64,000 bases of DNA from the NCBI GenBank assembly GCA_003233455.1, contig QILQ01000043.1:442-64441 (forward strand), read 5' to 3'. The translations under genes and the position numbers were made by a program. Below the pieces are notes generated by a model, which was given only the letters and a program-made list of their open reading frames with translations, ran no database searches and was not told the DNA's origin. How positions within the stretch are numbered: the stretch's first letter is position 1; every line of letters starts with the position of its first letter. Positions 1,287-60,372 of this stretch are shown piece after piece. The DNA is from Candidatus Zambryskiibacteriota bacterium (GTDB lineage Bacteria > Patescibacteriota > Minisyncoccia > Phycocordibacterales > WO2-35-19).

Positions 1287-1892
1287 ATGAGTCATCCAAA
1301 AAAAGAAAGAACTTTAGTAGTGATAAAACCTGATGGAGTGCAGAGAACTCTTATTGGTGAAATAATAGGCAGATTTGAAAAAATAGGTTTAAAACTTGTG
1401 GGAATAAAAATGGTTGTTCTCACTGAAGATTTTATTGAAAAACATTATACTCTTAATCCTGAGTGGAGAAGAATTACCGGAGAAAAACGCGTAAAGGCAG
1501 CGAGAGAAAAAGGAGAAAAACTTCCAACAGAAGATCCGTTTGAAATAACAGCAGTTATTCTTGAAAAATTAAAAAAATATATGACCAGTGGACCGGTTTT
1601 GGCAATGGTTTGGCAGGGAGCTCATTCGGTGGAACTTGTTAGAAAAATTACTGGCGGGACTGAACCAAGAAGTTCTGATGTGGGCACTATTCGCGGGGAT
1701 TATGTTATTGATTCTTATAAAATGGCCGATGACGATGGTAGGGCAGTTAGAAATCTAATTCACGCTTCCGGCACGGTTGATGAAGCGGAAAAAGAAATAA
1801 AACATTGGTTTAAGGAAAATGAGCTTATAAATTATCGTTTAATTGCTGAACAAATTTTGTATGATGTAAATTTGGACGGGTTGTTGGAATAG
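1287..1892 (+). CDS. ndk: Nucleoside diphosphate kinase with ~40-aa internal insertion
   Basis: VIKPDGVQR, HASGTVDEAEKEI blocks of NDK family. Confidence 0.85.
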   Translation: MSHPKKERTLVVIKPDGVQRTLIGEIIGRFEKIGLKLVGIKMVVLTEDFIEKHYTLNPEWRRITGEKRVKAAREKGEKLPTEDPFEITAVILEKLKKYMTSGPVLAMVWQGAHSVELVRKITGGTEPRSSDVGTIRGDYVIDSYKMADDDGRAVRNLIHASGTVDEAEKEIKHWFKENELINYRLIAEQILYDVNLDGLLE

Positions 1893-1907
1893 TGATATAA
1901 TACAAGT
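1851..1907. repeat. Direct repeat copy 1 (ndk 3' end + downstream promoter-like TATAAT); copy 2 at 2794-2850
   Basis: ~57 bp, ~90% identical to 2794-2850, flanking the inserted 1908-2788 two-gene cassette. Confidence 0.7.
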
Positions 1908-2132
1908 ATGATATTTAGACAATCTTTGTTTTGGGATACGGATATTAAAAAAATAGATACTCAAAAGAATGCTCAATATATAATTGAGAGAATTTTTGAG
2001 TTTGGTCGAGATGATGAAGTTAGATGGCTTTGGAGTTTTTATAGTAAATCACTTTTAAAAGAGGTTGTTATTAAATCGAGATCTTTACGGTCTAGAACGA
2101 AAACATTATGGAATTTAATACTCCAAAATTAA
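1908..2132 (+). CDS. Small conserved protein (LFWDTD...IIERIFEFG family) that I recall being commonly paired with AbiEii-like nucleotidyltransferases; putative cognate antitoxin
   Basis: Sequence family recognisable from memory; 25-nt overlap with downstream NTase gene. Confidence 0.4.
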   Translation: MIFRQSLFWDTDIKKIDTQKNAQYIIERIFEFGRDDEVRWLWSFYSKSLLKEVVIKSRSLRSRTKTLWNLILQN

Positions 2133-2788
2133 ATGATGTAAATTTTTCTTGTTTATCTCATTCCACCAAAAAAGCTCTGGATTATTTATCAACTCAAAAT
2201 TGGTTGGATAATTCAAATTGGTATCTTGCCGGAGGTACTGCCCTAGCTTTACAGGTAGGAAATCGTAAATCTGTTGACTTGGATTTTTTTACTACCGACC
2301 AAAATTTTACATCAGAAAAAATATTAATAAATTTTTTAAATAATAAGAATTGGAAGACTGATTTTGACGAGCCAAATACTATTTATGGCGAGTTGTTTGA
2401 GTCTAAGATTAGTTTTATAGCATATCCATTCTTTATACCAAAACAAGAATTCATCAGATATGGTTTTGTAAAGATACTGAATAAAACAGATGTTGCTGTA
2501 ATGAAGGTGATAGCTATTTCTCAAAGAGGAAAAAAAAGAGATTTTTTTGATTTATATTGGTGCGTCAAAAATATTGAGTCACTAGAAAATATAATAAAGC
2601 GACTTCCTATACAATATCCATCAGTTGCTCATGATTATCATCATTTATTTAAAGCTTTGGTTTATTTTGATGATGCTGAGAATGATCCAGATCCAGTTAT
2701 CTTTTTTGATACCAACTGGAATAAGGTGAAAAGTTTTTTTCAGAAAGAAATTCCAATACTTACAAAAAAATTGATAAAATTAAACTAA
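2108..2788 (+). CDS. Nucleotidyltransferase AbiEii/AbiGii-family toxin (type IV TA)
   Basis: N-terminal LAGGTALALQVGNRKSVDLDFFT matches DUF1814/AbiEii hallmark GGTALALxLGHRxSxDLDxF. Confidence 0.65.
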   Translation: MEFNTPKLNDVNFSCLSHSTKKALDYLSTQNWLDNSNWYLAGGTALALQVGNRKSVDLDFFTTDQNFTSEKILINFLNNKNWKTDFDEPNTIYGELFESKISFIAYPFFIPKQEFIRYGFVKILNKTDVAVMKVIAISQRGKKRDFFDLYWCVKNIESLENIIKRLPIQYPSVAHDYHHLFKALVYFDDAENDPDPVIFFDTNWNKVKSFFQKEIPILTKKLIKLN

Positions 2789-2793
2789 TAAAA

Positions 2794-2850
2794 CAAATTT
2801 TATATGATGTAAATTTGGACGGGTTGTTGGAATAGGAGTATAATAGTAGT
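2794..2850. repeat. Direct repeat copy 2 of ndk 3' end/promoter segment
   Basis: See copy 1 at 1851-1907. Confidence 0.7.
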
Positions 2851-2854
2851 GGGA

Positions 2855-3045
2855 TTGTTTGGATATTTTCTAAGTTGCACATATTCAGGGAGGTCAATAT
2901 CTCTATAATATGATGAGCGCTCAGGTGTTCTGATTTTTATAGTTGAGACCACCCACCTAATATTTTTCAATTAGGGAATTATTTCAAGCAATCCCAACAA
3001 AACTCATCAATAGGTGAGTTTTGTTGGGGTATGTGGCTTTAGTAA
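2855..3045 (+). ncRNA. Candidate structured RNA/strong hairpin region (long-range GGGATTG/CAATCCC pairing plus 15-bp perfect stem CCAACAAAACTCA/TGAGTTTTGTTGG)
   Basis: Non-coding 250-bp gap with nested complementary segments; identity unknown. Confidence 0.2.
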
Positions 3046-7358: not shown

Positions 7359-7438
7359 AATGAATAGTATAACAGGTTTTTTGGATTAAATCCATCTCAC
7401 CCCATCTAGATTTTAGTATAATTATAAATGTTCTCCGG

Positions 7439-7476
7439 TCCCTCTCCTTAGTAAGGAGAGGGGAAGGGGTGAGGTT
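7439..7476. repeat. Palindromic repeat CCCTCTCCTTAGTAAGGAGAGGGG + GGGTGAGGTT
   Basis: Member of window-wide GGGTGAGG palindromic family; between clpP and tig. Confidence 0.6.
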
Positions 7477-7477
7477 A

Positions 7478-8589: not shown

Positions 8590-8745
8590 CCCCTAATTTT
8601 TATCTTCTATAATAACTTCACCTAGCCCCTCTCCTACTTACCACCATCTCTATTATTTACCACCTCACCTCTCTCCTACCTACTATTTTACCACCTCACC
8701 CCTAGCCCCTCTCCTTAGTAAGGAGAGGGGAAGCGAGAAACTCAA
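8590..8745. repeat. Cluster of degenerate CACCTCACC / CCCCTCTCC repeats ending in a perfect palindrome CCCCTCTCCTTAGTAAGGAGAGGGG
   Basis: Four to five tandem degenerate units visible directly. Confidence 0.55.
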
Positions 8746-11139: not shown

Positions 11140-11164
11140 AAAATTAAATTAACCGATAAAATAC

Positions 11165-11205
11165 CCCCAGCCCCTCTCCTAAATGCAGGAGAGGGGAGAA
11201 ATAAA
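11165..11205. repeat. Palindromic repeat CCCCTCTCCTAAATGCAGGAGAGGGG
   Basis: Family member; in nusA/cyt b divergent intergenic region. Confidence 0.6.
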
Positions 11206-16648: not shown

Positions 16649-17111
16649 AGGATTTACTTTGATAGAGCTTCTCGTTGTTATCGCTATTATTGGGATACTT
16701 TCATCTATTATTCTTGGGAGTCTTAATAATGCCAGAGCTAGTGCTAGAGATTCAAAAAGAAAGCAAGAAATGATATCTATGCAAACAGCTCTTGAATTGT
16801 ATTATTTTGATAATGGTGTGTATCCTTCAACTAATGGTTCTTGGCGAGGGGCTGTTACATTTGGTAATTATGGAACAGGTGCAACAGGATATATTCCCGG
16901 GTTAGTTCCCAATTATATACCTGTTTTACCGTTAGATCCAAGTGGTACTAATGATGGATATCTCTATCGTTCTAATGGTACTAACTATAAATTGCTTTCA
17001 CATAAAAGTCCGGAGAGTTATCCTGCCCCTGGGACCAAATTTTATGATTCTGCCAGACCCACTTGGGCATGGAAGCTATGTAGTGGAGAACCTGCTTGTA
17101 GTAGTTGGTAA
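16635..17111 (+). CDS. Type IV pilin (prepilin, class III signal peptide)
   Basis: MKTSKGFTLIELLVVIAIIGIL N-terminus; paralog of 50175-50627. Confidence 0.75.
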   Translation: MKTSKGFTLIELLVVIAIIGILSSIILGSLNNARASARDSKRKQEMISMQTALELYYFDNGVYPSTNGSWRGAVTFGNYGTGATGYIPGLVPNYIPVLPLDPSGTNDGYLYRSNGTNYKLLSHKSPESYPAPGTKFYDSARPTWAWKLCSGEPACSSW

Positions 17112-17140
17112 AATTTATGTTGACTTCTTTTTGGAGTTTG
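17110..17140 (+). promoter_or_regulatory. Near-consensus sigma70-type promoter (TTGACT-16-TAATAT), copy 1 of a 31-bp direct repeat (copy 2 at 17526-17556 upstream of tuf)
   Basis: Identical 31-mer ttgacttctttttggagtttgttaatatata at both sites. Confidence 0.5.
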
Positions 17141-17179
17141 TTAATATATATATATATATTGATTTACACTAGAAATATT

Positions 17180-17392
17180 ATGATTAAAACAAAAACAAAA
17201 CTAAATATCACCTTAAAAGAAGCGAGCAGACTTTTTAAAGTTGCTAATAATTTTGCTGATATTTTTGAAGATTTTTTAGAGTCAAAAAAAATGTTTAGTT
17301 CTGAATTTACAAAAGGTTTGCAGACTTCTGTAGAACAAGCAAAATCAGGTCGCCTAAAGAAAATTTCTTCACTCTCAATATTAAAAAATTAA
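17180..17392 (+). CDS. Putative antitoxin-like small protein upstream of degraded RelE/ParE toxin
   Basis: 70-aa ORF; position relative to toxin remnant. Confidence 0.3.
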   Translation: MIKTKTKLNITLKEASRLFKVANNFADIFEDFLESKKMFSSEFTKGLQTSVEQAKSGRLKKISSLSILKN

Positions 17393-17395
17393 AAG

Positions 17396-17509
17396 GATTT
17401 AACCCACCTATATGGAGAGTAAGAATAGGAATTTATAGAATAATTTATTCTTTTGATAAAGATTTTATTATTTGTCTTAGGTTTAGACACAGAAAAGATA
17501 TATACAGAA
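17396..17509 (+). pseudogene. RelE/ParE toxin remnant (C-terminal half only: PIWRVRIGIYRIIYSFDKDFIICLRFRHRKDIYRNL)
   Basis: Clear RelE/ParE C-terminal signature in frame lacking any start; upstream frame blocked by TGA. Confidence 0.45.
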
Positions 17510-17525
17510 ATTTATGAATTTTTAT

Positions 17526-17556
17526 TTGACTTCTTTTTGGAGTTTGTTAATATATA
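17526..17556 (+). promoter_or_regulatory. tuf promoter (TTGACT-16-TAATAT), copy 2 of the 31-bp repeat
   Basis: See 17110-17140. Confidence 0.5.
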
Positions 17557-21483: not shown

Positions 21484-22332
21484 ATGGCAATAAAAAATTA
21501 CAAACCAACATCAAAATCAAGGAGACATATGTCTATTGTCTCTTATAAATCTATTTTAACTAAAAACAAACCTCTAAAAGCTCTCACTTCCGGCGTGAAG
21601 AGATCTGTCGGACGAAATAATGCGGGCAGGATAACAACGCGTCATAAAGGTGGCGGTCATAAGAGATTATTTAGAGAGATTGATTTTAAATACAACAAAA
21701 TCAATATTCCTTATAAAATAACTTCTGTGGAATATGACCCAAATCGCACCGGGTTTATCGGTATTGCTGTTTATGAAGATGGCGAGAAAAGATATATTCT
21801 TTTGCCAAAAAATATTAAAGTTGGCGAAAAACTTTTAACAGGAGAAAAGGCGGAAATAAAACAAGGTAATAGATTACCGTTAAAGAGTATACCGACTGGC
21901 GCTTTTGTTTATAATGTGGAACTAAAACCTCTTGGGGGAGCGAGAATTGCTCGTTCAGCCGGCAATTTTGTTCAAGTATTGGCTAAGGATGCTGGTTATG
22001 TTGATTTAAAAATGCCATCTAGTGAAATACGCAAAGTGAAAGAAACTTGTTGGGCCAGTATTGGCACGGTTTCAAATGAAGAAAAAAGACTTGAAAATTA
22101 TGGAAAGGCCGGAAAAAGCAGGTGGAAAGGTATTCGTCCAACAGTACGAGGTACCGCAATGAATCCGGTTGACCATCCGCATGGTGGCGGTGAAGGTAGG
22201 CAAGGCAGAGGCAGGAAACGAGCGGTTTCTAAATGGGGTAAACCAACCGGTAAAGGTCAAAAATCGCGACGCACTAAAAAATATTCTGATAAATTTATTA
22301 TTAGCAGAAGAAAAGTAGGCAAGAAGAGATAA
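21484..22332 (+). CDS. rplB: 50S ribosomal protein L2
   Basis: GTAMNPVDHPHGGGEG motif. Confidence 0.95.
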   Translation: MAIKNYKPTSKSRRHMSIVSYKSILTKNKPLKALTSGVKRSVGRNNAGRITTRHKGGGHKRLFREIDFKYNKINIPYKITSVEYDPNRTGFIGIAVYEDGEKRYILLPKNIKVGEKLLTGEKAEIKQGNRLPLKSIPTGAFVYNVELKPLGGARIARSAGNFVQVLAKDAGYVDLKMPSSEIRKVKETCWASIGTVSNEEKRLENYGKAGKSRWKGIRPTVRGTAMNPVDHPHGGGEGRQGRGRKRAVSKWGKPTGKGQKSRRTKKYSDKFIISRRKVGKKR

Positions 22333-22334
22333 TT

Positions 22335-22742
22335 ATGAATAATATAAAAATTTCACTGATTGATATTGATAAAAGAAAAAAGCTGAATATAAGATCCGGA
22401 GATACAGCGCGTGTTACTCAAAAAATAATTGAAAAAGATAAAAAGACCGGCAAGCCAAAAACCAGATTGCAGGATTTTGAAGGATTATGTTTGGCAGTCA
22501 AGCACGGTAAAGAAGCCGGAGGCACTTTTACTTTGAGAAAAGTGGCGTCAGGGGTGGGAGTTGAAAGAATTTTTCCAATTTATTCTCCAATGATAGAAAA
22601 AATAAAAATAATTAAACGCTCCAAAGTTCGTCGCGCCAAACTTTATCATATTCGTGATAAAGCGGCTAAAGAAATTCGTCGTCAAATGAGAAATGTCAGA
22701 GCTTTACCTAAAGTGGAAGAAATTGAACTTGACACAAAATAA
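22335..22742 (+). CDS. rplS: 50S ribosomal protein L19 (unusual position directly after rplB)
   Basis: RSGDTARV...FEGLCLAVKHG...GVGVERIFPIYSP...VRRAKLYHIR matches L19. Confidence 0.8.
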   Translation: MNNIKISLIDIDKRKKLNIRSGDTARVTQKIIEKDKKTGKPKTRLQDFEGLCLAVKHGKEAGGTFTLRKVASGVGVERIFPIYSPMIEKIKIIKRSKVRRAKLYHIRDKAAKEIRRQMRNVRALPKVEEIELDTK

Positions 22743-22841
22743 CTCCTTCACTCATTCATTCACTCACTCTTCATTTTTGGTCTACTAATGGGAACACCTC
22801 ACCCCTCGCTTCGCGTAGGAGAGGGGAAAGAAAAACTTAAC
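22728..22841. repeat. 114-bp direct repeat copy 1 (rplS 3' end + GGGTGAGG palindromic element); copy 2 at 23668-23784
   Basis: Near-identical (3-bp indel) copies flank the HD-domain gene. Confidence 0.75.
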
Positions 22842-22893
22842 TAAATCACTTTAAGGCGTAGAAATTCAAACAAAGATTATGTAGCGGCACAAG

Positions 22894-23541
22894 TTAAAGC
22901 ACTTTTAGATTTTCTGCAATTTTTAACATTTCAGAAATACTCTTGTCTTCTAATGATTCTTTCACATTATTCCAAAGAGCAAGATTTGTTTTTGCCCAAT
23001 TCAAATATTTTGTTTTTGCTAAATCAGTATAAAAATAAATTCCTTCGTCCAGTAATTTATTTTGTTCAGAAGTAATTTTATTTGCTAGCTTTTGTATATC
23101 TATTTTATTTTGTTTGATATAATTATTTGTAAATAAAATTGGTGTAATTGGTAAAGACTTGAACAAAGTATCGGCATCACTTAATGATTTTCCTTCATTT
23201 GAAATATTTTGATTTCTAATTGCAGTATGAGCTTCCATAATTATATTTTCAATTTTGATGATTTCCTCATCAGAATATCCGCTTTTAATCAAAATATTAT
23301 TACGGTAACTATTCGCTTCTTCAGGTTCAGAATTAACTTTTACAATATAATTCAAATCATGAACAAGTGCCGCTGACTCAACAAAAAATAAATTGGCGTT
23401 GATTGATTTAGCAAAAACAATTGCTTTATTTTTTACAAAAACAATATGGTGCCATCCATGAAAAAGTAGTTTTTTACTTTTTTTTAAGTATACCTTTTCA
23501 AGGTTTAAAGTTAAATTATTTATCTTGCTTTTTTGTTTCAT
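22894..23541 (-). CDS. HD-domain phosphohydrolase-like protein
   Basis: HGWHH...VHD...SDAD matches H..H/HD/D motif set of the HD superfamily. Confidence 0.55.
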   Translation of the reverse strand: MKQKSKINNLTLNLEKVYLKKSKKLLFHGWHHIVFVKNKAIVFAKSINANLFFVESAALVHDLNYIVKVNSEPEEANSYRNNILIKSGYSDEEIIKIENIIMEAHTAIRNQNISNEGKSLSDADTLFKSLPITPILFTNNYIKQNKIDIQKLANKITSEQNKLLDEGIYFYTDLAKTKYLNWAKTNLALWNNVKESLEDKSISEMLKIAENLKVL

Positions 23542-23667
23542 AACCCAGGTGCACCAATCTTTTGTTATATATTATACAAACTCAATATATAATTATTACA
23601 TAAACTGTAAATAATCATACTATCAAGATTATTTTACTGATTTTTATAAAATTATGCAACAAAAATA

Positions 23668-23784
23668 CTTGACACAAAATAACTCCTTCACTCATTCATT
23701 CACTCACTCTTCATTTTTGGTCTACTAATGGGAACACCTCACCCCTCGCTTCGCGTATAAGGAGAGGGGAAAGAAAAACTTAAC
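23668..23784. repeat. Direct repeat copy 2 (see 22728-22841)
   Basis: Direct comparison. Confidence 0.75.
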
Positions 23785-23856
23785 ATTATACTAAAATCTA
23801 GATAGGGTGAGGTGTTTGAAAAAAGATGGAAAGTAGATATACTTTGTTTGTAATTA

Positions 23857-23941
23857 GCGCGAGTGGTGGAATTGGTAGACACGCTGGCATGAGGTGCCAG
23901 TGCCGTAAGGTGTGCAGGTTCAAGTCCTGTCTCGCGCACCA
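23857..23941 (+). tRNA. tRNA-Leu (anticodon GAG), long variable arm, CCA encoded
   Basis: Acceptor GCGCGAG/CTCGCGC, anticodon loop AT-GAG-GT, T-arm GGTTCAAGTCC. Confidence 0.8.
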
Positions 23942-24710: not shown

Positions 24711-24787
24711 GGTGGTAGTAGCTCAGCTAGTAGAGCGCCGCTCTGTGGAAGCGGAGGTCGTGGGGGCAGAACCCATCTACCACCCAT
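24711..24787 (+). tRNA. tRNA-His (anticodon GTG) with G-1:C73; atypical T-loop, no encoded CCA
   Basis: G-1 GTGGTAG acceptor pairs CTACCAC+C73; anticodon stem CCGCT/AGCGG, loop CT-GTG-GA. Confidence 0.55.
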
Positions 24788-29834: not shown

Positions 29835-30260
29835 ATGGCAAAGAAAATCACCAAAAAAATAAAATTAGTTATAGCGGCAGGTAAAGCAACACCTGCTCCT
29901 CCTGTCGGCACTGCTTTGGGTCCGGCTGGTATCAACATCGGTGAATTTGTTACTAAATTTAATGAGGCTACCAGAGAGATGACTGGTGCTTTAGTGCCAG
30001 CTGAAATTTCTGTTTATGAAGATAGGACTTTTGATTTTATATTAAAAACTTCGCCTGCTTCAAGTCTTATTATGAAGGCGATTAACATTAAAAAAGGTTC
30101 GGGCAAAACTCCAGTTCAGAAAGTTGGATCCATTACTCGCCAACAATTGGAAGAAATTGCTCAAACAAAAATGGTAGACCTAAACGCCACCAATTTGGAA
30201 GCAGCTGTTAAAATTATCGTCGGCACTTGTCAAAGTATGGGAGTGGAGGTGAAGGGATAA
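29835..30260 (+). CDS. rplK: 50S ribosomal protein L11
   Basis: PPVGTALGPAGINI motif. Confidence 0.9.
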   Translation: MAKKITKKIKLVIAAGKATPAPPVGTALGPAGINIGEFVTKFNEATREMTGALVPAEISVYEDRTFDFILKTSPASSLIMKAINIKKGSGKTPVQKVGSITRQQLEEIAQTKMVDLNATNLEAAVKIIVGTCQSMGVEVKG

Positions 30261-30325
30261 CCTCACCTCAACCCCTCTCCTTAATAAGGAGAGGGCACAC
30301 GAAGTGAGGGGTGAGGTGAAAGTGT
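30261..30325. repeat. Compound palindromic repeat CCTCACCTCAACCCCTCTCCTTAATAAGGAGAGGG...GGGGTGAGGTG
   Basis: Nested inverted repeats; between convergent rplK and dcd. Confidence 0.6.
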
Positions 30326-30335
30326 TTAAATAAAA

Positions 30336-31010
30336 TTATTTTTTCTTAATATCTTTATCATTATAAAGTTGAGGTAGCATGTTTTTAGGACTCCATTCTT
30401 TTATCATTTTTTTGATATTTTTTGTGGTTTGATATTTTCCTAATTTACTATAATCTTGGTCAAGAATTTCTCCAGTTTCAAAAAAAATAAGTTGAGCAAT
30501 ACGACGACCTACCACGAGAGGAATATAATAATGTTTGGAATTATTAGTAATCTCCATAGTCCAACGATTTATATAACCCACATCTCCCCAACCAGCACAT
30601 TTACAAACTTCAATAAAACTTCTTCCAAGAGAAGACCTTGCTTTCATCATAGTGGTAATATGATTTCGTCCACCTATAAATTCATTAGTATGAGCTAAAA
30701 TGGTTTCTCCCGGAGCAAGCATTATTACTTTATCTTTTGGAGATATATTTCCGAATTTAAATTTGTAATCTTTAAACACTTCATTGGCCTTTTTTGCTCG
30801 TAATGGAGTAGTTCCCCATACATAATCTACATGCTCTTTTTCGTATATATTGAAAATATTTTGGAAATGTTTTGGTGGTTGTTCAACAAAAAAATATTCA
30901 CCAAGAGTTAGGTCATAACTTGAGGTAGAAAGATTATTTTTTATGAATGGTTCAATAATTATATTGCCATTTTTTATTTCTTCAATTATTTTTTTATTAC
31001 TAAGTGCCAT
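30336..31010 (-). CDS. dcd: dCTP deaminase family protein (possibly bifunctional dCTP deaminase/dUTPase)
   Basis: N-terminal IIIEPF, C-terminal GWGDVGY..RWTMEI.N blocks. Confidence 0.65.
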   Translation of the reverse strand: MALSNKKIIEEIKNGNIIIEPFIKNNLSTSSYDLTLGEYFFVEQPPKHFQNIFNIYEKEHVDYVWGTTPLRAKKANEVFKDYKFKFGNISPKDKVIMLAPGETILAHTNEFIGGRNHITTMMKARSSLGRSFIEVCKCAGWGDVGYINRWTMEITNNSKHYYIPLVVGRRIAQLIFFETGEILDQDYSKLGKYQTTKNIKKMIKEWSPKNMLPQLYNDKDIKKK

Positions 31011-31036
31011 AATTTTAATATTCTATACAAACATTT

Positions 31037-32569
31037 TTATCTTTTTTTTGATTTATTTTTTATTGATTCAAATATAAGAGGTTTATCTTGAATATACGGA
31101 ATATTTGTAGAAATTGCAATTTCTGCCTTCTGGAGTTCTGCTCCTATATCAAGAAGATGTTCTGGTAAGTTTACAAGTTCTAACTGGGCAATTTTTTTAG
31201 AAACTTCAATTGCTGTTTTCCCTACTATAGTTAATAGGTCGTCTCCACTTGGAGTTTTAAAATGGGCACTTATTTTATTATCTTTAATACTTATAATAAA
31301 GAGACCTCTTGGATCACCACTCACACTTGGGTCAAAACCAAGATAAGGTTCTCTTTTCCATAAAGAACATTGCACTAATTTTTTTGCATCAACCCATTCT
31401 GCTTCATATATATGAGCTGATTGAGAAGTAATTTGTAAACTTCCAATTTTTAATCCCGCTTGAGTGGCAATTTCTTTTTGTAAAGCTCTTAAACCAAAAG
31501 CATTTGGTATTGCTGCTTTAAAAATATCATGACTCCTAACTGTAACCAGTAAATGCATTTTTTTGTTTGTTTGAAGAACTTGGATTTGAGTTATACACGG
31601 TGGCTCTTTAGAGTCTTTGTCTATCCAAGGAACAAGAGTAGTAGCTACTCCACGTCGCGTATCTATAGAATCTTTTAATTCTTTAATTATAATTTCTTTA
31701 ATTTGATTAACCTCACTTTTAGCTCCAGGATATCTCATTAGTCTGTTTCCATATGTATATTTTACACCTTTCGGAGTATCTGGAGATAAGAAAATAGATT
31801 TATAATGATTAATTGATTCTTTATTTAAACCAATAGTTTGTTTTAAACTTTTTGGTAAGTCCATATTTAGATTTGGATTATCTGGATCTTCTTCTTCAAC
31901 AACCCATGTTACACCAATTAACTCTCTTTGTTGTGTTCCGTATTGTGTTCCTTTGATTGTGCCATAACGTATAATACGATCAACTACTCTTATCCAAGCA
32001 TCAGTTATGGTTTTTCCTCTAACAATAAAACCAACTTTTTCGGAAGGAAAAACATCTATAACTTCTGGTATTGCATCTTTAAATCTAACAGATTTCATAT
32101 AGGGAGCTTCTTTACTTTCTAAAAGTTTTTTTGCTACTGTATGAATTTTTGGATCTGATAATTCTTTTAAACTAACATTTTTTATAATCTTATTTACTAT
32201 ATCTACATCTATTTCTTTTTCTATCTTGAAATCAATTCCCGGTATCTCTCTTTTTTTGTTTATTCCTTTTTTCCACAATTTAAGTAAAATTTCTTTACCA
32301 GAAACTCCAAAAGGACTGCAGGATAAAGCACCATTATTCCAAATGTATAAATTACGTATTTGAGGATTTAAAGCTAGATTTCTCAATATTATATTAACTC
32401 CTTGTCTACTATATAAAGTGCCTACAATTGCAGAACGTTTTAAAATATCAGGACATTCCTTTATAATTTTTTCTGGCTCATTCCAAAGAGTGCAAAAACC
32501 CGCACTTTTACCTTTACCTAATATTACTTTGTATTTATTAGATTGGTATAATTTTTCAGAAGTAATCAT
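31037..32569 (-). CDS. Thymidylate synthase (ThyA)-like enzyme with ~180-aa N-terminal and ~100-aa C-terminal extensions
   Basis: EPPC (catalytic Cys), RSHD, IPNAFG (Asn = dUMP specificity), AHIY blocks of ThyA/dNMP hydroxymethylase fold. Confidence 0.6.
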   Translation of the reverse strand: MITSEKLYQSNKYKVILGKGKSAGFCTLWNEPEKIIKECPDILKRSAIVGTLYSRQGVNIILRNLALNPQIRNLYIWNNGALSCSPFGVSGKEILLKLWKKGINKKREIPGIDFKIEKEIDVDIVNKIIKNVSLKELSDPKIHTVAKKLLESKEAPYMKSVRFKDAIPEVIDVFPSEKVGFIVRGKTITDAWIRVVDRIIRYGTIKGTQYGTQQRELIGVTWVVEEEDPDNPNLNMDLPKSLKQTIGLNKESINHYKSIFLSPDTPKGVKYTYGNRLMRYPGAKSEVNQIKEIIIKELKDSIDTRRGVATTLVPWIDKDSKEPPCITQIQVLQTNKKMHLLVTVRSHDIFKAAIPNAFGLRALQKEIATQAGLKIGSLQITSQSAHIYEAEWVDAKKLVQCSLWKREPYLGFDPSVSGDPRGLFIISIKDNKISAHFKTPSGDDLLTIVGKTAIEVSKKIAQLELVNLPEHLLDIGAELQKAEIAISTNIPYIQDKPLIFESIKNKSKKR

Positions 32570-32589
32570 TCTATGATAATATCATTATT

Positions 32590-33234
32590 ATGAAAAAAGG
32601 AAAATTTATTGTTTTTGATGGTAGTGATGGATCTGGTAAACAGACACAAGTTGCCCTGTTGAAATCTTACTTAAGAGAAAAAGGAGTTCTGGTTGAAACA
32701 ATTGATTTTCCTCAATACAAAAATAACTTTCATGGGAAAATTTTGAAAGCAGCTCTTCGGGGAGAGTTTGGGGATTTTATTTCTCTTAATCCTTATACTG
32801 CTTCACTTCTTTATACTGCTGATCGTTTTGAATCAGTAGGTAAAATCAAAGAGCTTCTTGAAAGAGGTTATACTGTGATTGCCGACAGATTTACAACTGC
32901 AAATATGATTCATCAAGGGGGTAAGTTTCCTGATACAAATGAGAGAGACAAGTATTTGAAATGGCTTTTAGGTTTGGAATTTGAGTATTTGAAATTTCCT
33001 AAACCAGATGCAGTTGTTTTTCTTAAGGTTCCGGTTGAAGTTTCTTTGAGACTTTTAGAAGATAAAAAAGGAAAAGATAAAGCAGAAGAAAGCACTTCTT
33101 ATCTTACTAATTCTCTTGTGTGTGCAGAAGCAATCGCGAAGAAGTATGGTTGGATTGTGGTGAATTGTGCACCTAATGGTGTAATGCGATCACGCGAATC
33201 AATTCATAAGGAAGTAGCGGGCTTATTTTTTTAA
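32590..33234 (+). CDS. tmk: Thymidylate kinase
   Basis: FIVFDGSDGSGKQTQ P-loop, DRF motif. Confidence 0.8.
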   Translation: MKKGKFIVFDGSDGSGKQTQVALLKSYLREKGVLVETIDFPQYKNNFHGKILKAALRGEFGDFISLNPYTASLLYTADRFESVGKIKELLERGYTVIADRFTTANMIHQGGKFPDTNERDKYLKWLLGLEFEYLKFPKPDAVVFLKVPVEVSLRLLEDKKGKDKAEESTSYLTNSLVCAEAIAKKYGWIVVNCAPNGVMRSRESIHKEVAGLFF

Positions 33235-34862: not shown

Positions 34863-35126
34863 ATGTTGCTCGTTTACAGGCACAAAAAATTTTCTAAGGA
34901 ATTTAAGAAGCTTCTTAGGGTTGTTCAAGAAAAATTTGAGCAAAAAATAGGAATTTTTGTCATAGATCAGTATTCGGTTGGATTTAATAACCATGGTCTA
35001 AAAAGGAAATATAACGGTTGTAGGAGTATTGATATTACTGGAGATTATAGGGCAATATATTACATAAATAACAGTATTGCAATTTTTATCCATATAGGCA
35101 CTCATCATCAGCTTTATGGAAAATAA
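34863..35126 (+). CDS. YafQ/RelE-family toxin
   Basis: C-terminal IHIGTHHQLY (GTHSDLF-like); paralog of 63640-63900. Confidence 0.6.
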   Translation: MLLVYRHKKFSKEFKKLLRVVQEKFEQKIGIFVIDQYSVGFNNHGLKRKYNGCRSIDITGDYRAIYYINNSIAIFIHIGTHHQLYGK

Positions 35127-36831: not shown

Positions 36832-36947
36832 ATAAAATATACAATATTCCTTGTTTTAATTTTTTTAGATTGACAATATAGGGTTATTTGATAGTATTGT
36901 GAGCAAGCTCTAAGGAGCTTTTAATTTGCAAAAGAAATAAACAGATT

Positions 36948-37289
36948 ATGTCACGATCACTTAAAAAAGGCCCTTATGTTGATGAAAGGGTGCTCAAAAA
37001 AATAGAAGGCAAAAAACCTGCAGATACTGCGGTTATTAAGACTTGGTCTAGAGCTTGTGCTATTGCTCCTGAGATGATTGGTTTCACTTTTGGAGTGCAT
37101 AATGGCAGGGAACATATTGAAGTTTTTGTCACAGAAGATATGGTTGGTCATAAACTTGGAGAATTTTCTTTGACTCGCAAATTTATAAAACATGGAGGTA
37201 AGATGCAAAAAGAACTTGAAGCCAAGAAAAAAGAAGATGAAATAAAAGCGGCTAAATCCGCTAAAGCGACATCTGAATCAAAAAAATAA
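36948..37289 (+). CDS. rpsS: 30S ribosomal protein S19 with Lys-rich C-terminal tail
   Basis: SLKKGPYVD...[28 protein letters not shown]. Confidence 0.85.
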
Positions 37290-37405
37290 GTTAAACATAC
37301 AAATATGCAAATGATGCAAATAATACAAATGAATGCTAATCCATATCCAAATTATATTCGTAGTTATTCGTTGATTAGTATAATTAGTAGATTGGTATAT
37401 TAAAA
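37290..37405. repeat. ~115-bp intergenic element copy 1, starts at rpsS stop codon (copy 2 at 39752-39865)
   Basis: Near-identical (1 mismatch) to copy 2; contains conserved 32-codon [35 protein letters not shown]. Confidence 0.7.
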
Positions 37406-37443
37406 CGGCACAATTAAATAGCTATAGACAATCTCCCAGAAAA

Positions 37444-37797
37444 GTGAGATTAGTAGCCGATACCATTAGAGGTATATCTACCAAAGAAGCTAGAATTAAA
37501 TTGGATTTTATAACTAAACGAGCCGCTGGTCCGTTAGGTAAACTTCTAAACTCCGCTATTGCTAACGCGAAAAATTTAGGTGCTGATATGGATAATCTTT
37601 GGATTAAAACTATTACTGTTAATGGTGGCAGAATATTATACAGACGCAGACCAGTTTCTCACGGCTCGGCTCATCCTATTCGTAAACGCACTTCGCGTAT
37701 TACTGTTGTTTTGGCGGAAAAACAAAAAACCGCAACTCAAAAAACCAAATTAGAAGCTGAAAAATTCGCGCTTAATCAACCAACAAGTAAAAAATAA
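37444..37797 (+). CDS. rplV: 50S ribosomal protein L22 (true start probably ~35 nt upstream at a non-ATG codon)
   Basis: Upstream in-frame sequence encodes ...SYRQSPRKVRLVADTIRG, the conserved L22 N-terminus, with no ATG. Confidence 0.8.
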   Translation: MRLVADTIRGISTKEARIKLDFITKRAAGPLGKLLNSAIANAKNLGADMDNLWIKTITVNGGRILYRRRPVSHGSAHPIRKRTSRITVVLAEKQKTATQKTKLEAEKFALNQPTSKK

Positions 37798-37801
37798 AAT
37801 T

Positions 37802-38461
37802 ATGACTCACACAGTACACCCATATGCTCATAGATTAGGTATTATTCGCGATTGGAAATCGCGTTGGTTTGAGGTGAAATCCAAATATAAAGAAAATTTA
37901 AAAAAGGATGTCCTAATTTTTGAATATCTTAAAAAGCGTCTAAAAGGATTTTTTGTAAATTCTATTGAAATTGAAAGAAGTGTTAAAACTTTTAGAATTA
38001 TTATTGAAACCTCTCGTCCCGGACTTATTATTGGCAGAAGTGGCGAAGGTATGAATAAACTTAGAGAAGACATTATTCATTTTATAAAGAAACGCGATTT
38101 AAATTCTAGAGAAGAATTAAAAATAGATGTGAAAGAGGTAAAATCACCGGAATCAAATGCTATGATAGTAGCTCAAATGATAGCTGAAGGGCTTGAAAAA
38201 AGAATGCCTTTCAGAAGGGTAATGAAAACTATGATTGAAAAAGCTTTTGCTAATCGTGATGTAAAAGGGGTTAAAATTTCTCTTTCTGGTATGCTTGGTG
38301 GTTCAAAAATGGCTAGATTAGAGTCTAAAAAGATTGGTCGAATTCCTTTGCAAACATTACGTGCCGATATTGATTATGCAAAATATGAAGCTCTTCAACC
38401 ACTTGGAAAAATCGGCATAAAAGTTTGGATTTATAAAGGTGAGATTTTTGATAAAAAATAA
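37802..38461 (+). CDS. rpsC: 30S ribosomal protein S3
   Basis: KH domain RPGLIIGRSG. Confidence 0.9.
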   Translation: MTHTVHPYAHRLGIIRDWKSRWFEVKSKYKENLKKDVLIFEYLKKRLKGFFVNSIEIERSVKTFRIIIETSRPGLIIGRSGEGMNKLREDIIHFIKKRDLNSREELKIDVKEVKSPESNAMIVAQMIAEGLEKRMPFRRVMKTMIEKAFANRDVKGVKISLSGMLGGSKMARLESKKIGRIPLQTLRADIDYAKYEALQPLGKIGIKVWIYKGEIFDKK

Positions 38462-38473
38462 TTCTTAATTATT

Positions 38474-38893
38474 ATGTTATTTCCTAAAAAAATTAAACAT
38501 AGAAAGTGGCAAACTATGCGCAAGAATCCTAAAAAAGTCGGACCGGCAACTCGTGGCATCAAAGTATCTTTTGGGTCGTATGGTCTTAAAGCAATGACTC
38601 CTGGCAGAATTACTTCCAATCAGATTGAATCTGCCAGAAAAGCCATAACTAAATCTATAAGTAAAACTGGTAGAGTTTGGATACGCATTTTTCCTGATAT
38701 GCCTTTTACCAAAAAACCGGCGGAAGTGAAGATGGGTAAAGGTAAGGGAGATTTAGAGGGATATCACGCTAAAGTTTTATCTGGACAAATTATATTTGAA
38801 GTTGATGGAGCCTCAAATTCTTTATCTATTGAGTCTTTGCGTAAAGGTGGCACCAAGATGCCAATAAAAACTAGAATTGTGGCTCGCAATTAA
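38474..38893 (+). CDS. rplP: 50S ribosomal protein L16
   Basis: KHRKWQ...GRI family signature. Confidence 0.9.
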
Positions 38894-38906
38894 AATATTT
38901 AATTAA

Positions 38907-39089
38907 ATGAAAAAAGGATTATTAAAAAAGAATAAAGATGATTTAATGAAAGAATTAGACGAAAAACGTCTTTCTTTGCGCGATATTAGATTTGGTATTG
39001 CTGGAAGTAAAAGTAAAAATGTTAAAGAACAAAAAACAATAAAAAAAGATATTGCCAGAATAATGACTGAATTAAGAATTATGAATTAA
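38907..39089 (+). CDS. rpmC: 50S ribosomal protein L29
   Basis: Size, position, ELRxxxxxELxxxLxxLRF pattern. Confidence 0.8.
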   Translation: MKKGLLKKNKDDLMKELDEKRLSLRDIRFGIAGSKSKNVKEQKTIKKDIARIMTELRIMN

Positions 39090-39094
39090 GAATT

Positions 39095-39367
39095 ATGAAT
39101 GAAAAAAAAGAAAAAAAGAATATAAATAAGGAAAAGAAAACAAACGGTAAAATTTTAAGCGGAGTAGTAATATCGGCTAAAATGCGAGATACTTGTACTG
39201 TTTTGGTTAGCAGATTTATAAAGCATAAAAAATACAGAAAATATTATAAAGTAAGCAAAAAATATAAAGCGCATGATGCTGGCAATATTAAAAAAGTGAG
39301 AGATAAAGTTAAGATAATGGAATGTCGCCCCATTTCTAAAGATAAACATTTTATGATAATAAATTAA
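39095..39367 (+). CDS. rpsQ: 30S ribosomal protein S17
   Basis: GVVISAKMRDTCTVLV...KYKAHD pattern. Confidence 0.85.
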   Translation: MNEKKEKKNINKEKKTNGKILSGVVISAKMRDTCTVLVSRFIKHKKYRKYYKVSKKYKAHDAGNIKKVRDKVKIMECRPISKDKHFMIIN

Positions 39368-39373
39368 AAAATT

Positions 39374-39751
39374 ATGATTCAGCCCCAAACAATAATAAAA
39401 ATAGCGGATAATTCAGGTGCCAAATTGGGGCGAGTATTTAAGGTATTGGGTAGTTCTAAAAAAAGATACGCCAGAGTGGGAGAGTTGGTTATCTTTTCTG
39501 TTCAAAAGGCAGAGCCCCGCAAAGAAATTAAAAAGAAAGCGGTGCTTTTGGGTTTAATTGTTCGCCAAAAAGCTCCACTTAGAAGAAAAGACGGTTCTTA
39601 TATTCGTTTTGATGAAAATGCGGCTGTTGTGGTAGAGCGAAAAAAAGGCGAGATTATTCCCAAAGCCGGAAGAATATTTGGTCCGATACCGAGAGAAATC
39701 GCTGAAGCGGGATATCAAGCTATTGTTTCTTTGGCACCTGAAATAATTTAG
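39374..39751 (+). CDS. rplN: 50S ribosomal protein L14
   Basis: MIQPQTIIKIADNSGAK. Confidence 0.9.
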   Translation: MIQPQTIIKIADNSGAKLGRVFKVLGSSKKRYARVGELVIFSVQKAEPRKEIKKKAVLLGLIVRQKAPLRRKDGSYIRFDENAAVVVERKKGEIIPKAGRIFGPIPREIAEAGYQAIVSLAPEII

Positions 39752-39865
39752 TTAAACATACAAATATGCAAATGATGCAAATGATACAAATGAATGCTAA
39801 TCCATATCCAAATTATATTCGTAGTTATTCGTTGATTAGTATAATTAGTAGATTGGTATATTAAA
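39752..39865. repeat. ~115-bp element copy 2, starts at rplN stop codon
   Basis: See 37290-37405. Confidence 0.7.
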
Positions 39866-39868
39866 TTT

Positions 39869-40093
39869 ATGAAAATCAAAAAAGGAGACAAAGTAAAAAT
39901 AATAACAGGTAAAGACAAAGGTAAAACAGGTGTTGTTTTAAAAGCGTATCCTAAAGATTTTTTAGTATTGGTTGAAAATATAAACAAGAAAAAAATTCAT
40001 CAAAAACCGAGAAAACAAGGAGAAAAAGGTAAAATAATAGAACAATCAGCACCGATACATGTATCAAATGTTAAAAAGATTAAGGATAAGTAA
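39869..40093 (+). CDS. rplX: 50S ribosomal protein L24 (short form)
   Basis: [25 protein letters not shown] motif. Confidence 0.75.
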
Positions 40094-60328: not shown

Positions 60329-60372
60329 TTTCCCCTCTCCTGCATTTAGGAGAGGGGCTAGGGGTGAGGTTA
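60329..60372. repeat. Palindromic repeat CCCCTCTCCTGCATTTAGGAGAGGGG + GGGGTGAGGTT
   Basis: Family member between gatC and gatA. Confidence 0.6.

What the first reader, a model, noticed from the sequence alone, without database searches (positions are those of the whole stretch)
22728..23784. HD-domain gene inserted between rplS and tRNA-Leu, flanked by 114-bp direct repeats
Near-identical 114/117-bp copies flank the minus-strand HD-superfamily gene (22894-23541). Each copy comprises the last 12 nt of rplS, a CA-rich spacer and a GGGTGAGG palindromic element. Together with the ndk and tuf cases this is a third cargo insertion accompanied by an unusually long target duplication, which suggests one shared integration mechanism. 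No integrase, transposase or short terminal inverted repeats are visible.
Basis: partly seen in the sequence, partly recalled or inferred. Interest (0 to 1): 0.65.

Follow-up and report, generated by a model that had tools for sequence, protein, structure and literature searches.

The report
HD gene insertion with duplicated spacer
A small nucleotide-hydrolase gene was recently inserted between two conserved housekeeping genes of an uncultured Patescibacteria bacterium, with about 115 bases of native sequence duplicated on both sides; this is real, but it looks like a scar of recombination rather than a new kind of mobile element.

Summary
Two copies of a 115/118-nt unit (97.5% identical) bracket a minus-strand 215-aa gene. 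A second public assembly of the same strain shows 121-nt copies at 98.3%. The gene belongs to the HD superfamily by profile evidence (YpgQ/YedJ-like) and has its own predicted promoter.

In 72 of 80 relatives rplS is followed by tRNA-Leu(GAG). The gap is usually 50-430 nt and none contains an HD gene. In 23 relatives the gap holds other genes, 15 of them a LAGLIDADG endonuclease. So the HD gene is an insertion in a hot spot, and the repeat is the duplicated native rplS 3' end plus spacer.

The idea of one special integration mechanism is only weakly supported. Repeat lengths in comparable cases range from 37 to 1,056 nt. The inserts share no end motifs, inverted repeats or recombinase. One repeat pair in this window brackets six essential ribosomal-protein genes, and two pairs are duplicated promoters.

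Recombination- or replication-based duplication-insertion fits best. Caveat: the two assemblies differ by indels concentrated in these repeats, so the exact repeat edges are uncertain. Interest is moderate.

The parts
22335..22742 (+). rplS (ribosomal protein L19), 135 aa in this record. Its last 16 nt are the start of repeat copy 1.
   Evidence: PF01245 E=4e-29. In the JGI assembly an 11-nt difference makes the ORF run through the repeat, giving 174 aa.
22727..22841 (.). Direct repeat copy 1 (115 nt): rplS 3' end, CA-rich spacer, left outer arm AACACCTCACCC (22793-22804) and the inner GC-rich hairpin remnant.
   Evidence: It is contiguous with native rplS on its left side.
22842..23666 (-). 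Inserted segment (825 nt): 52-nt 3' tail, the HD gene, and a 125-nt 5' region with its own promoter. GC is 25.3% against 32.1% for the window.
   Evidence: No terminal inverted repeats. The non-coding ends have no similarity to the flanks of HD homologues.
22894..23541 (-). HD-superfamily phosphohydrolase gene (215 aa, YpgQ/YedJ-like).
   Evidence: More than 400 homologues. Conserved H28/H31/H32, H61-D62, H105 and D122/D124. Profile against PDB: 5dqv 1.6e-8, 3djb 1.8e-8. PF01966 in 19/24 members; the window protein alone scores only E=0.078.
23584..23611 (-). Predicted sigma-70-type promoter of the HD gene (TTTACA-16-TATATT, 10/12).
   Evidence: This is a consensus match only.
23667..23784 (.). 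Direct repeat copy 2 (118 nt), contiguous on its right with the rest of the native spacer.
23733..23816 (+). Complete native nested palindromic element: outer arms AACACCTCACCC / GGGTGAGGTGTT around an inner hairpin. The insertion/duplication boundary (23784|23785) lies inside it.
   Evidence: Related copies lie at about 4805-4862, 7396-7480(-), 8690-8745, 11163-11200, 30258-30318 and 60330-60372. Self-BLAST gives 7396-7475 vs 23811-23736 at 79% over 81 nt.
23816..23843 (+). tRNA-Leu promoter (TTGAAA-16-TATACT), outside the repeat and conserved in relatives.
23857..23941 (+). tRNA-Leu(GAG), the conserved downstream neighbour of rplS.
1849..2855 (+). Comparable case A. A 55-64-nt repeat (last 44 nt of ndk plus a TATAAT box) brackets a DUF6922 + AbiEii toxin-antitoxin cassette.
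17100..17556 (+). Comparable case B. A 37-51-nt repeat, which is the native tuf promoter TTGACT-N17-TATATA, brackets a small antitoxin-like ORF plus a RelE-like remnant.
37280..39865 (+). Comparable case C. A 125-131-nt repeat sits at the rpsS|rplV and rplN|rplX junctions and brackets six essential ribosomal-protein genes.

Best explanation
An 825-bp, self-contained expression unit carrying a YpgQ/YedJ-type HD phosphohydrolase gene with its own promoter was acquired horizontally and recently. It inserted into the conserved spacer between rplS and tRNA-Leu(GAG), which is a recurrent insertion hot spot in Paceibacteria. The flanking 115-121-nt direct repeats are two copies of the native sequence: the rplS 3' end, a CA-rich spacer and the left two-thirds of a GC-rich nested palindromic element. 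The duplication was made in the same event as the insertion. The most likely route is a recombination- or replication-based process, not an enzyme that makes a fixed staggered cut. Candidate routes are: single-crossover (Campbell-type) integration of a circularised fragment that already carried the spacer; homology-facilitated or microhomology-mediated joining of a linear fragment across two sister chromosomes; or a template switch at the hairpin. The result is attL/attR-like. RecA-type recombination between the repeats could delete the gene or release it as a roughly 940-bp circle. Shown: the insertion, the native origin of the repeat, the lack of a recombinase, and the variable repeat length. 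Inferred: the mechanism of duplication, its recency, and the capacity to loop out.
For: Insertion and hot spot:
- rplS->tRNA-Leu(GAG) is conserved in 72/80 relatives.
- 49 have gaps of 50-430 nt. 23 have gaps of 520-2,620 nt holding other genes (LAGLIDADG HEG in 15, PNPOx-like, Trp-repressor-like and others). None has an HD gene.
- Removing the insert plus one copy leaves a 175-nt spacer with the same layout as relatives: GC-rich hairpins, then the conserved TTGAAAAA...TATACT tRNA promoter.

Foreign origin:
- Insert GC is 25% against 32%; GC3 is 18% against 23-30%.
- It has its own predicted promoter.
- HD homologues sit in unrelated contexts, including a DPANN archaeon at 74% aa identity, and none has flanking repeats.
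- The next-best homologue is only 80% identical.

Mechanistic rather than selected duplication:
- Each copy is contiguous with native sequence on one side only.
- An insertion at the right edge of the unit would have needed no duplication (sequence).

Not a transposase- or integrase-type fixed duplication:
- No recombinase in the 64 kb and no inverted ends.
- Repeat lengths of comparable cases run from 37 to 131 nt here.
- The closest homologue of the ndk-site cassette is bracketed by 1,056 nt at 98.9% identity (L174).
- The inserts share no end motifs.

Other:
- Weak microhomology exists at the right junction: insert end ACAAAAAT against ACAAAATA inside the unit.
- The structure is present in two assemblies.
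Against: - No empty-site allele, circular junction or close relative could be obtained. The next L19 is at most 88% identical, and the repeat is absent from the metagenome collection scanned. So recency and mechanism are inferred.
- The Campbell route needs a prior event that put the spacer on the incoming DNA.
- The microhomologies are short and could be chance.
- The two assemblies differ in a concerted way in both copies: +11/+14 nt ACTTGACAC at the left edges and -16/-13 nt of the hairpin arm. A simple one-off event followed by independent decay does not explain this. It points to assembly or curation error, or to exchange between the copies.
- The repeat sits at the 3' end of a conserved gene, as do att sites of integrase-borne elements.
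Confidence: 0.55

Rival explanations
1. The locus is a remnant, or a trans-mobilised derivative, of a site-specific integrative element (CIME-like). An integrase-borne element integrated into the 3' end of rplS and carried a replacement copy of that end, so attL and attR are the two repeats. The integrase was later deleted, or is encoded elsewhere and acts in trans.
For: The repeat begins inside the 3' end of a conserved gene, and the ndk repeat likewise covers the last 44 nt of ndk. That is the classic layout of integrase att sites. Relatives carry recombinase-less islets bracketed by tRNA 3' ends or whole tRNAs: L068 with 48 nt of tRNA-His at 100%, and L032 with 144 nt.
Against: No integrase was found in the 64 kb. 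Three or four different target sequences within one window would need several integrases. The insert is only 825 nt with near-identical repeats, leaving little time for decay. The tuf and r-protein repeats are not gene 3' ends. The 1,056-nt repeat in L174 is far beyond any att core.
Confidence: 0.15
2. The structure arose in two steps. The HD gene first inserted at one edge of the spacer without duplication. Later a copy of the spacer was pasted on the other side by local duplication or gene conversion. This would be the same process that copied a promoter-bearing spacer to rplN|rplX and duplicated the tuf promoter.
For: Case C shows a 125-nt spacer copied to a junction that is gapless (-4 nt) in the closest relative, with no cargo involved. 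The tuf repeat core is exactly the native promoter, which is single-copy in relatives. L024 has the same TA module upstream of tuf without a repeat.
Against: It needs two precise events to produce a perfect target-duplication topology. The HD repeat contains no predicted promoter. Copy 2 has no obvious function, so selection would not favour the second step.
Confidence: 0.12
3. The arrangement is an assembly or population artefact. The HD segment with one repeat might belong to a separate molecule or subpopulation and have been threaded into the chromosome path, or the two copies might look more alike than they really are.
For: Over 26.4 kb the window and the JGI assembly have 0 mismatches but 9 indels, and 6 of them lie in long direct repeats. 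The window record lacks the conserved ATG start of rplV that relatives and the JGI assembly have. So this record carries local errors exactly at repeats.
Against: Both assemblies give the same order rplS-repeat-HD-repeat-tRNA. A 115-121-nt repeat is shorter than typical reads and the largest k-mers, so junctions are normally read through. A 940-bp circle has no replication functions.
Confidence: 0.07
4. A dedicated, so far unknown integration machinery in this lineage inserts small cassettes and generates long (50-130 nt) target duplications. It would be shared by the ndk, tuf and rplS events.
For: There are three cargo-bearing repeat pairs in 64 kb, about three-fold more than the 1 per 55 kb seen in relatives. 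The DUF6922-AbiEii cassette is repeat-bracketed in 2 of 3 contexts examined.
Against: Repeat length varies about 30-fold (37-1,056 nt). The inserts have no conserved termini and no candidate enzyme lies nearby. One pair brackets essential genes. HD homologues elsewhere lack repeats. The enrichment is weak: Poisson p is about 0.03-0.1.
Confidence: 0.06

Closest known systems
attL/attR-bracketed islets without recombination genes (cis-mobilisable elements, CIMEs, of streptococcal ICE/IME families; from my own knowledge, not checked in a paper here)
   Same: A small cargo lies between direct repeats that include the 3' end of a conserved housekeeping gene. There is no integrase inside. It could excise as a circle.
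   Different: No cognate integrase or parent element is known. The repeat is longer than usual att identity segments. Other repeat pairs in the same genome are promoters or spacers, not gene ends.
PeSL regulatory cassettes and mini-circles of T4-type phages (Arbiol et al. 2010, PMC2839356)
   Same: Short repeats containing a stem-loop, and in the ndk/tuf cases a promoter, flank single accessory genes. Recombination between neighbouring repeats would release a small circle able to re-insert by homology.
   Different: PeSLs are one dispersed family used throughout the hyperplastic regions of a phage genome. Here each repeat pair is locus-specific, and only the GC-rich hairpin part is dispersed. 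The host is a cellular CPR genome, and no circles have been shown.
Campbell-type single-crossover integration and homology-facilitated illegitimate recombination in naturally transformable bacteria (own knowledge)
   Same: Both give an insert flanked by a duplication of the homologous anchor, of arbitrary length, with no dedicated recombinase. The window encodes a full type IV pilus/competence-like apparatus.
   Different: Neither process has been demonstrated in CPR bacteria. The origin of a fragment carrying both the HD gene and the local spacer is unexplained.
Transposon target-site duplications
   Same: Direct repeats of target sequence lie on both sides of an insert.
   Different: Known transposase-made duplications are short and of fixed length (own knowledge). 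Here they are 37-1,056 nt, with no inverted ends and no transposase.
YpgQ / YedJ-type stand-alone HD hydrolases (PDB 5dqv, 3djb, 3dto, 3b57, 3gw7)
   Same: About 210-aa single-domain proteins with the H...HD...H...D metal-binding motifs. The profile match is E=1.6e-8. One homologue is embedded in a thyA-dCMP deaminase-dUTPase-DHFR-adk-tmk cluster, which suggests nucleotide metabolism.
   Different: Sequence similarity is limited to the N-terminal ~100 residues. The C-terminal half is family-specific. No biochemical data exist for this family.
REP/MITE-like palindromic repeat families
   Same: The GC-rich part of the repeat is a copy of a nested palindrome found at 7 or more other intergenic sites in the window and in the same spacer of relatives.
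   Different: This explains only about 50 of the 115 nt. The rplS end and CA-rich spacer occur only at these two places in the window.

Membership tests
HD-domain metal-dependent phosphohydrolase superfamily | Conserved H...HD...H...D metal-ligand motifs | tested here: met
   H28/H31/H32, H61-D62 and D122/D124 are invariant, and H105 is at least 90% conserved, in 24 family members.
HD-domain metal-dependent phosphohydrolase superfamily | Significant profile match to PF01966 or to solved HD structures | tested here: met
   The family profile hits 5dqv at 1.6e-8 and 3djb at 1.8e-8. PF01966 is hit by 19/24 members, best 8e-7. The window protein alone is sub-threshold: E=0.078 and TIGR00277 at 0.004.
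HD-domain metal-dependent phosphohydrolase superfamily | Hydrolase activity on nucleotides or phosphoesters | not testable with these tools
   The only hint is genomic context, from L089.
DDE/other transposon with target-site duplication | Transposase gene, or non-autonomous copy with terminal inverted repeats | tested here: not met
   No transposase in the window. No inverted repeats at 22842/23666.
DDE/other transposon with target-site duplication | Short duplication of fixed length for all copies | tested here: not met
   Lengths are 37-51, 55-64, 115-121, 125-131 and 1,056 nt.
Integrase-type integrative element / CIME | Direct repeats (attL/attR) at the 3' end of a tRNA or conserved gene | tested here: met
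   The repeat starts 16 nt before the rplS stop.
Integrase-type integrative element / CIME | Tyrosine or serine recombinase in the element or genome that recognises the site | tested here: not met
   None in the insert or in the 64-kb window. The rest of the genome was not available.
Integrase-type integrative element / CIME | Excision to a circle plus a restored empty site | not testable with these tools
   This needs the raw reads. A search for the repeat in the metagenome collection found nothing.
PeSL-like mobile regulatory cassette | Repeat contains a promoter plus a terminator stem-loop | tested here: inconclusive
   The HD repeat has a hairpin but no predicted promoter or canonical terminator. 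The tuf and ndk repeats do span promoter-like hexamers.
PeSL-like mobile regulatory cassette | One repeat family dispersed between many accessory ORFs | tested here: not met
   Each pair is locus-specific. Only the GC-rich hairpin sub-part is dispersed.
Dispersed palindromic (REP/MITE-like) element | Multiple dispersed copies with conserved inverted arms | tested here: met
   This holds for 22790-22841 / 23733-23816 only. Other copies lie at about 4805, 7396, 8690, 11163, 30258 and 60330.

The most novel reading that the evidence does not exclude
CPR/Patescibacteria may exchange small self-contained gene cassettes (toxin-antitoxin pairs, single metabolic genes such as this HD hydrolase) through a recombinase-independent route. 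In this route a cassette bracketed by a duplicated native spacer loops out as a mini-circle, is taken up through the type IV pilus/competence apparatus, and re-integrates by homology. That would be a cellular counterpart of phage PeSL mini-circles. Toxin-antitoxin cargo would stabilise the otherwise unstable duplications.
Probability: 0.12. Interest if true: 0.7.

Novelty: new variant of a known kind. Interest (0 to 1): 0.4.

Why it matters
How ultra-small, host-dependent CPR bacteria acquire genes is poorly understood. They have few recognisable mobile elements. This locus is a clean, young example of single-gene acquisition at a conserved hot spot, with a footprint (long, variable-length duplication of native sequence, no recombinase) that points to host recombination or replication rather than a mobile-element enzyme. 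If the footprint proves common, it would offer a simple sequence signature for dating and counting recent gene gains in metagenome-assembled genomes. It would also make the proposed mini-circle route testable with read data. As it stands it is a single, well-documented case with an unresolved mechanism, in a record that has local assembly problems at these very repeats.

Tried and rejected
- **Empty-site allele in a close strain.** The window's exact L19 protein was not on record for contig look-up. The best other L19 in 5.8 billion proteins is at most 88% identical. The unique part of the repeat gave no exact match in the metagenome collection. The test could not be done.
- **The HD gene travels with its own repeats.** Rejected. 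Seven contigs (L083-L089) representing four HD homologues (63-74% aa) were checked and have no flanking direct repeats (contexts). The short contigs of the 80% homologue (L088) and of P0008 (L090, L091) were not self-searched. Only the ORF is conserved at the DNA level across homologues.
- **The HD gene is of phage, plasmid or defence origin.** No hits in PHROGs, PADLOC, or the phage and plasmid collections.
- **The repeat is a known RNA.** No Rfam hit other than tRNAs. Folding of copy 2 plus its flank is only mildly better than shuffles (z=-2.0) and copy 1 is not.
- **A remnant of the LAGLIDADG gene lies at this site.** No trace anywhere in the window.
- **The repeat serves as promoter or terminator.** No canonical terminator and no good promoter inside it.
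- **The whole 115-nt unit is a dispersed element.** Only its GC-rich third is.
- **This genome is strongly enriched in repeat-bracketed segments.** The enrichment is only about three-fold over 1.1 Mb of relatives, which is weak.
Full report

Yes. Window 22727-22841 and 23667-23784 are direct repeats. They share 91 nt and 25 nt exact blocks separated by a 3-nt indel. Self-BLAST gives 97.5% identity over 118 columns, E=6e-51. Between them lies a 215-aa ORF on the minus strand, 22894-23541.

On the left is rplS (PF01245, E=4e-29), which ends at 22742. Each copy therefore starts with the last 16 nt of rplS. On the right is tRNA-Leu(GAG) at 23857-23941.
- 1849-1902 / 2792-2845 (ndk)
- 17114-17150 / 17521-17556 (tuf)
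- 37280-37404 / 39741-39865 (fourth pair)

**2. A second assembly of the same strain**

The HD protein is also encoded on JGI contig Ga0212224_1000125. Over 11.9 kb that contig has no mismatch to the window but four indels, all inside the two repeat copies.
- The window has an extra ACTTGACAC-containing 11 or 14 nt at the left edge of both copies.
- The window lacks 16 or 13 nt that form the left arm of a perfect hairpin, CCCTCTCCTT..AAGGAGAGGG.

In the JGI version the copies are 121 nt, 98.3% identical (two mismatches in the hairpin loop) and 942 nt apart. In that version rplS reads through copy 1, giving 174 aa.

Comparing two further stretches brings the total to 26.4 kb with 0 mismatches and 9 indels. 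Six of the nine lie in long direct repeats. One window-specific deletion removes the ATG start of rplV, which the JGI assembly and the closest relatives conserve. So the window record probably carries local errors at repeats. The architecture is robust, but the exact repeat edges are not. The concerted difference in both copies remains unexplained.

**3. What the gene is**

Pfam does not hit the window protein at E<=0.01. It nevertheless belongs to a tight family of about 215-aa proteins with more than 400 members, mostly Patescibacteria.
- The motifs FHGWHH, HD, H and SDAD are invariant or nearly so.
- A profile of 24 members matches solved HD hydrolases: 5dqv at 1.6e-8, 3djb at 1.8e-8, 3dto, 3b57 and E. 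coli YedJ 3gw7. I recall 5dqv as Bacillus YpgQ, a nucleotide pyrophosphohydrolase; the tool output does not name it.
- 19 of 24 members hit PF01966.
- In one Patescibacteria contig a 74%-identical homologue sits inside a thyA, dCMP deaminase, dCTP deaminase/dUTPase, HD, thyA-like, DHFR, adk, tmk cluster. The window has its own DCD, ThyA-like, Tmk cluster 7 kb away.

A role in nucleotide-pool metabolism is the best guess. It is inferred, not shown. There is no link to phages, plasmids or known defence systems.

**4. It is an insertion in a hot spot**

Among 80 species-level relatives (best L19 identity 85%, Zambryskibacteria and other Paceibacteria), 72 have tRNA-Leu(GAG) downstream of rplS.
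- In 49 the gap is 50-430 nt.
- In 23 it is 520-2,620 nt and holds other genes: a ~220-aa LAGLIDADG endonuclease in 15 (PF14528), found nowhere else in the 1.5 Mb examined; a PNPOx-like protein; a Trp-repressor-like protein; a 606-aa protein; and others.
- None has an HD gene.

Removing the insert and one repeat copy from the window leaves a 175-nt spacer. Its layout matches the relatives: GC-rich hairpins, then the conserved tRNA promoter TTGAAAAA...TATACT.

The insert (22842-23666) is AT-richer than its surroundings: 25% against 32% GC, and GC3 of 18% against 23-30%. It has its own predicted promoter. HD homologues lie in unrelated contexts, including a DPANN archaeon (74% aa, 75% nt, next to PolD and MCM). 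Those checked by self-BLAST (L083-L087) have no flanking repeats.

**5. What the repeat is**

Each copy is contiguous with native sequence on one side only: copy 1 with rplS, copy 2 with the rest of the spacer. That is the topology of a target duplication.

The right-hand ~50 nt of the unit belongs to a dispersed nested palindrome. Its outer arms are ACCTCACCCC / GGGGTGAGGT, around an inner CCCTCTCC...GGAGAGGG hairpin. At least seven other copies occur in the window, and related hairpins occur in the same spacer of relatives. The duplication boundary (23784|23785) lies inside this element, between the inner hairpin and the right outer arm. The rplS end and the CA-rich spacer occur only at these two places in the window.

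An insertion at the right edge of the unit would have left rplS and the tRNA promoter intact without any duplication. So the duplication is best seen as a by-product of the event, not something selection required.

**6. Is there one shared mechanism?**

*Case A (ndk).* A DUF6922 + AbiEii toxin-antitoxin pair lies between 55-64-nt repeats. These comprise the last 44 nt of ndk plus a TATAAT box, and together they look like a promoter, TTGGAC-N18-TATAAT.

*Case B (tuf).* The high-identity core of the repeat is exactly the native tuf promoter, which is single-copy in relatives. The bracketed DNA is a small antitoxin-like ORF plus a RelE-like remnant. Relative L024 has a fuller version of that module upstream of tuf without a repeat.

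*Case C (ribosomal proteins).* A 125-131-nt repeat sits between rpsS|rplV and rplN|rplX and brackets six essential ribosomal-protein genes. In the closest relative rplN and rplX overlap (-4 nt), and the repeat body has no homologue in relatives. Here the repeat is the novelty, not the DNA between.

*Outside this genome.* The closest homologue of the case A cassette (75% aa, L174) is bracketed by a 1,056-nt repeat at 98.9% identity, a duplicated diversity-generating-retroelement target gene. Another homologue has no repeat (L176). The conserved cassette runs from its -10 box to the AbiEii stop and has no conserved termini.

*Background rate.* Relatives carry other recombinase-less islets bracketed by tRNA 3' ends or promoter-like segments. 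The rate is about 1 per 55 kb, against 3-4 in this 64 kb. That is only a weak enrichment.

No integrase or transposase is present in the window.

**7. Mechanism**

The 30-fold range of repeat lengths, the locus-specific repeat sequences, and the absence of shared termini, inverted repeats and recombinases argue against a transposase-like or ruler-type integrase.

They fit processes that duplicate an arbitrary stretch of target:
- single-crossover integration of a circular fragment carrying the homologous stretch;
- joining of a linear fragment across sister chromosomes by homology on one side and microhomology on the other;
- a replication template switch, for which the hairpin next to the boundary is a plausible stall site.

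Short microhomology at the right junction (ACAAAAAT against ACAAAATA) is compatible but weak.

Such duplications are unstable, because recombination between the copies deletes the insert. That would explain why the older-looking cases carry toxin-antitoxin cargo or functional promoters, while the HD case has almost identical repeats and looks young. This last point is inference.

I give 0.55 to this explanation. The rivals are:
- decayed or trans-mobilised integrase-type islet: 0.15
- two-step insertion followed by spacer copy-paste: 0.12
- assembly or population artefact: 0.07
- dedicated new machinery: 0.06

**8. Comparison with known systems and verdict**

The locus works most like an attL/attR-bracketed islet without recombination genes (CIME-like), or like the PeSL cassette/mini-circle system of T4-type phages (PMC2839356). 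It fails defining features of both: no cognate recombinase, and no single dispersed repeat family. It is not a transposon.

I class it as a new variant of a known kind: a recombinase-less, repeat-bracketed gene gain in a CPR genome. The proposal of a special shared mechanism is not established. Read-level data would decide quickly. Interest: 0.4.

Noticed in passing
L004, L015, L025, L031, L033, L036, L040, L046, L051, L053, L054, L062, L067, L078, L079 (rplS-tRNA-Leu spacers): A ~220-aa LAGLIDADG endonuclease gene occupies the rplS-tRNA-Leu(GAG) spacer in 15 of 80 relatives and occurs nowhere else in 1.5 Mb examined. In most intact copies its stop lies about 0-13 nt before the tRNA. Its conserved leader (AAYTGGTAGACGCTAT..CCTTGAG..TATAAT) resembles the D-arm to anticodon loop of tRNA-Leu(GAG). 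This may be a free-standing homing element specific for this site.
   Followed up: partly
window 37403 (also 5110, 34615, 37317, 22726-22736, 22816, 23662-23675, 23757): The window record differs from the JGI assembly of the same strain by 9 indels and 0 mismatches in 26.4 kb. One indel removes the conserved ATG start of rplV (18 nt), which relatives retain. The record probably contains local deletion errors, concentrated at repeats.
   Followed up: partly
window 21484-22742 and 35116-40092: The S10/spc ribosomal-protein operon is split. rplB is followed directly by rplS (2-nt gap). rpsS-rplV-rpsC-rplP-rpmC-rpsQ-rplN-rplX lie 14.6 kb downstream, behind argS. The closest relatives share the argS-rpsS arrangement.
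   Followed up: partly
window 37280-37404 and 39741-39865: A 125-131-nt AT-rich repeat with promoter-like hexamers lies immediately upstream of rplV and of rplX. It has no counterpart in relatives, where rplN and rplX abut or overlap. It may be a tandem-duplication remnant or a copied regulatory spacer.
   Followed up: partly
L083/L084 (DPANN archaeon contigs) vs window 22894-23541: An HD homologue with 74% aa and 75% nt identity sits between archaeal PolD DP2 and eIF-2B/MCM genes. This suggests recent cross-domain transfer between a CPR bacterium and a DPANN archaeon lineage.
   Followed up: no
L174 1688-2743 and 3698-4753: A DUF6922-AbiEii cassette lies between two 98.9%-identical copies of a 329-aa gene. 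Both copies match a 108-nt template-like repeat next to a reverse transcriptase and bAvd gene. This looks like a duplicated diversity-generating-retroelement target with a toxin-antitoxin pair at the junction.
   Followed up: partly
window 24712-24784: Rfam finds a tRNA that ARAGORN missed. By synteny it is tRNA-His(GTG). The JGI contig ends just after it (24823). In relative L068 the 3' end of tRNA-His is duplicated around a 371-aa membrane-protein gene.
   Followed up: no
window 47932-48378 and 48405-48959: A PilT/T2SSE-type ATPase is split into two adjacent ORFs. This is either a pseudogene or another indel error in the record.
   Followed up: no
window 4805-4862, 7396-7480, 8690-8745, 11163-11200, 30258-30318, 60330-60372: A family of GC-rich nested palindromes (CCTCACCCC ... 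CCCTCTCC-loop-GGAGAGGG ... GGGGTGAGG) lies in intergenic regions of an otherwise 32% GC genome. They lack the T-run of canonical terminators. In relatives L023/L024, and in the JGI version of this strain, the rplS ORF reads through such an element.
   Followed up: partly
window 30336-33234: A dCTP deaminase, a 510-aa ThyA-like protein fused to a PterinBD-DUF4346 domain, and thymidylate kinase form a cluster. In L089 an HD homologue is embedded in the equivalent cluster, which links the HD family to thymidylate/dNTP metabolism.
   Followed up: no
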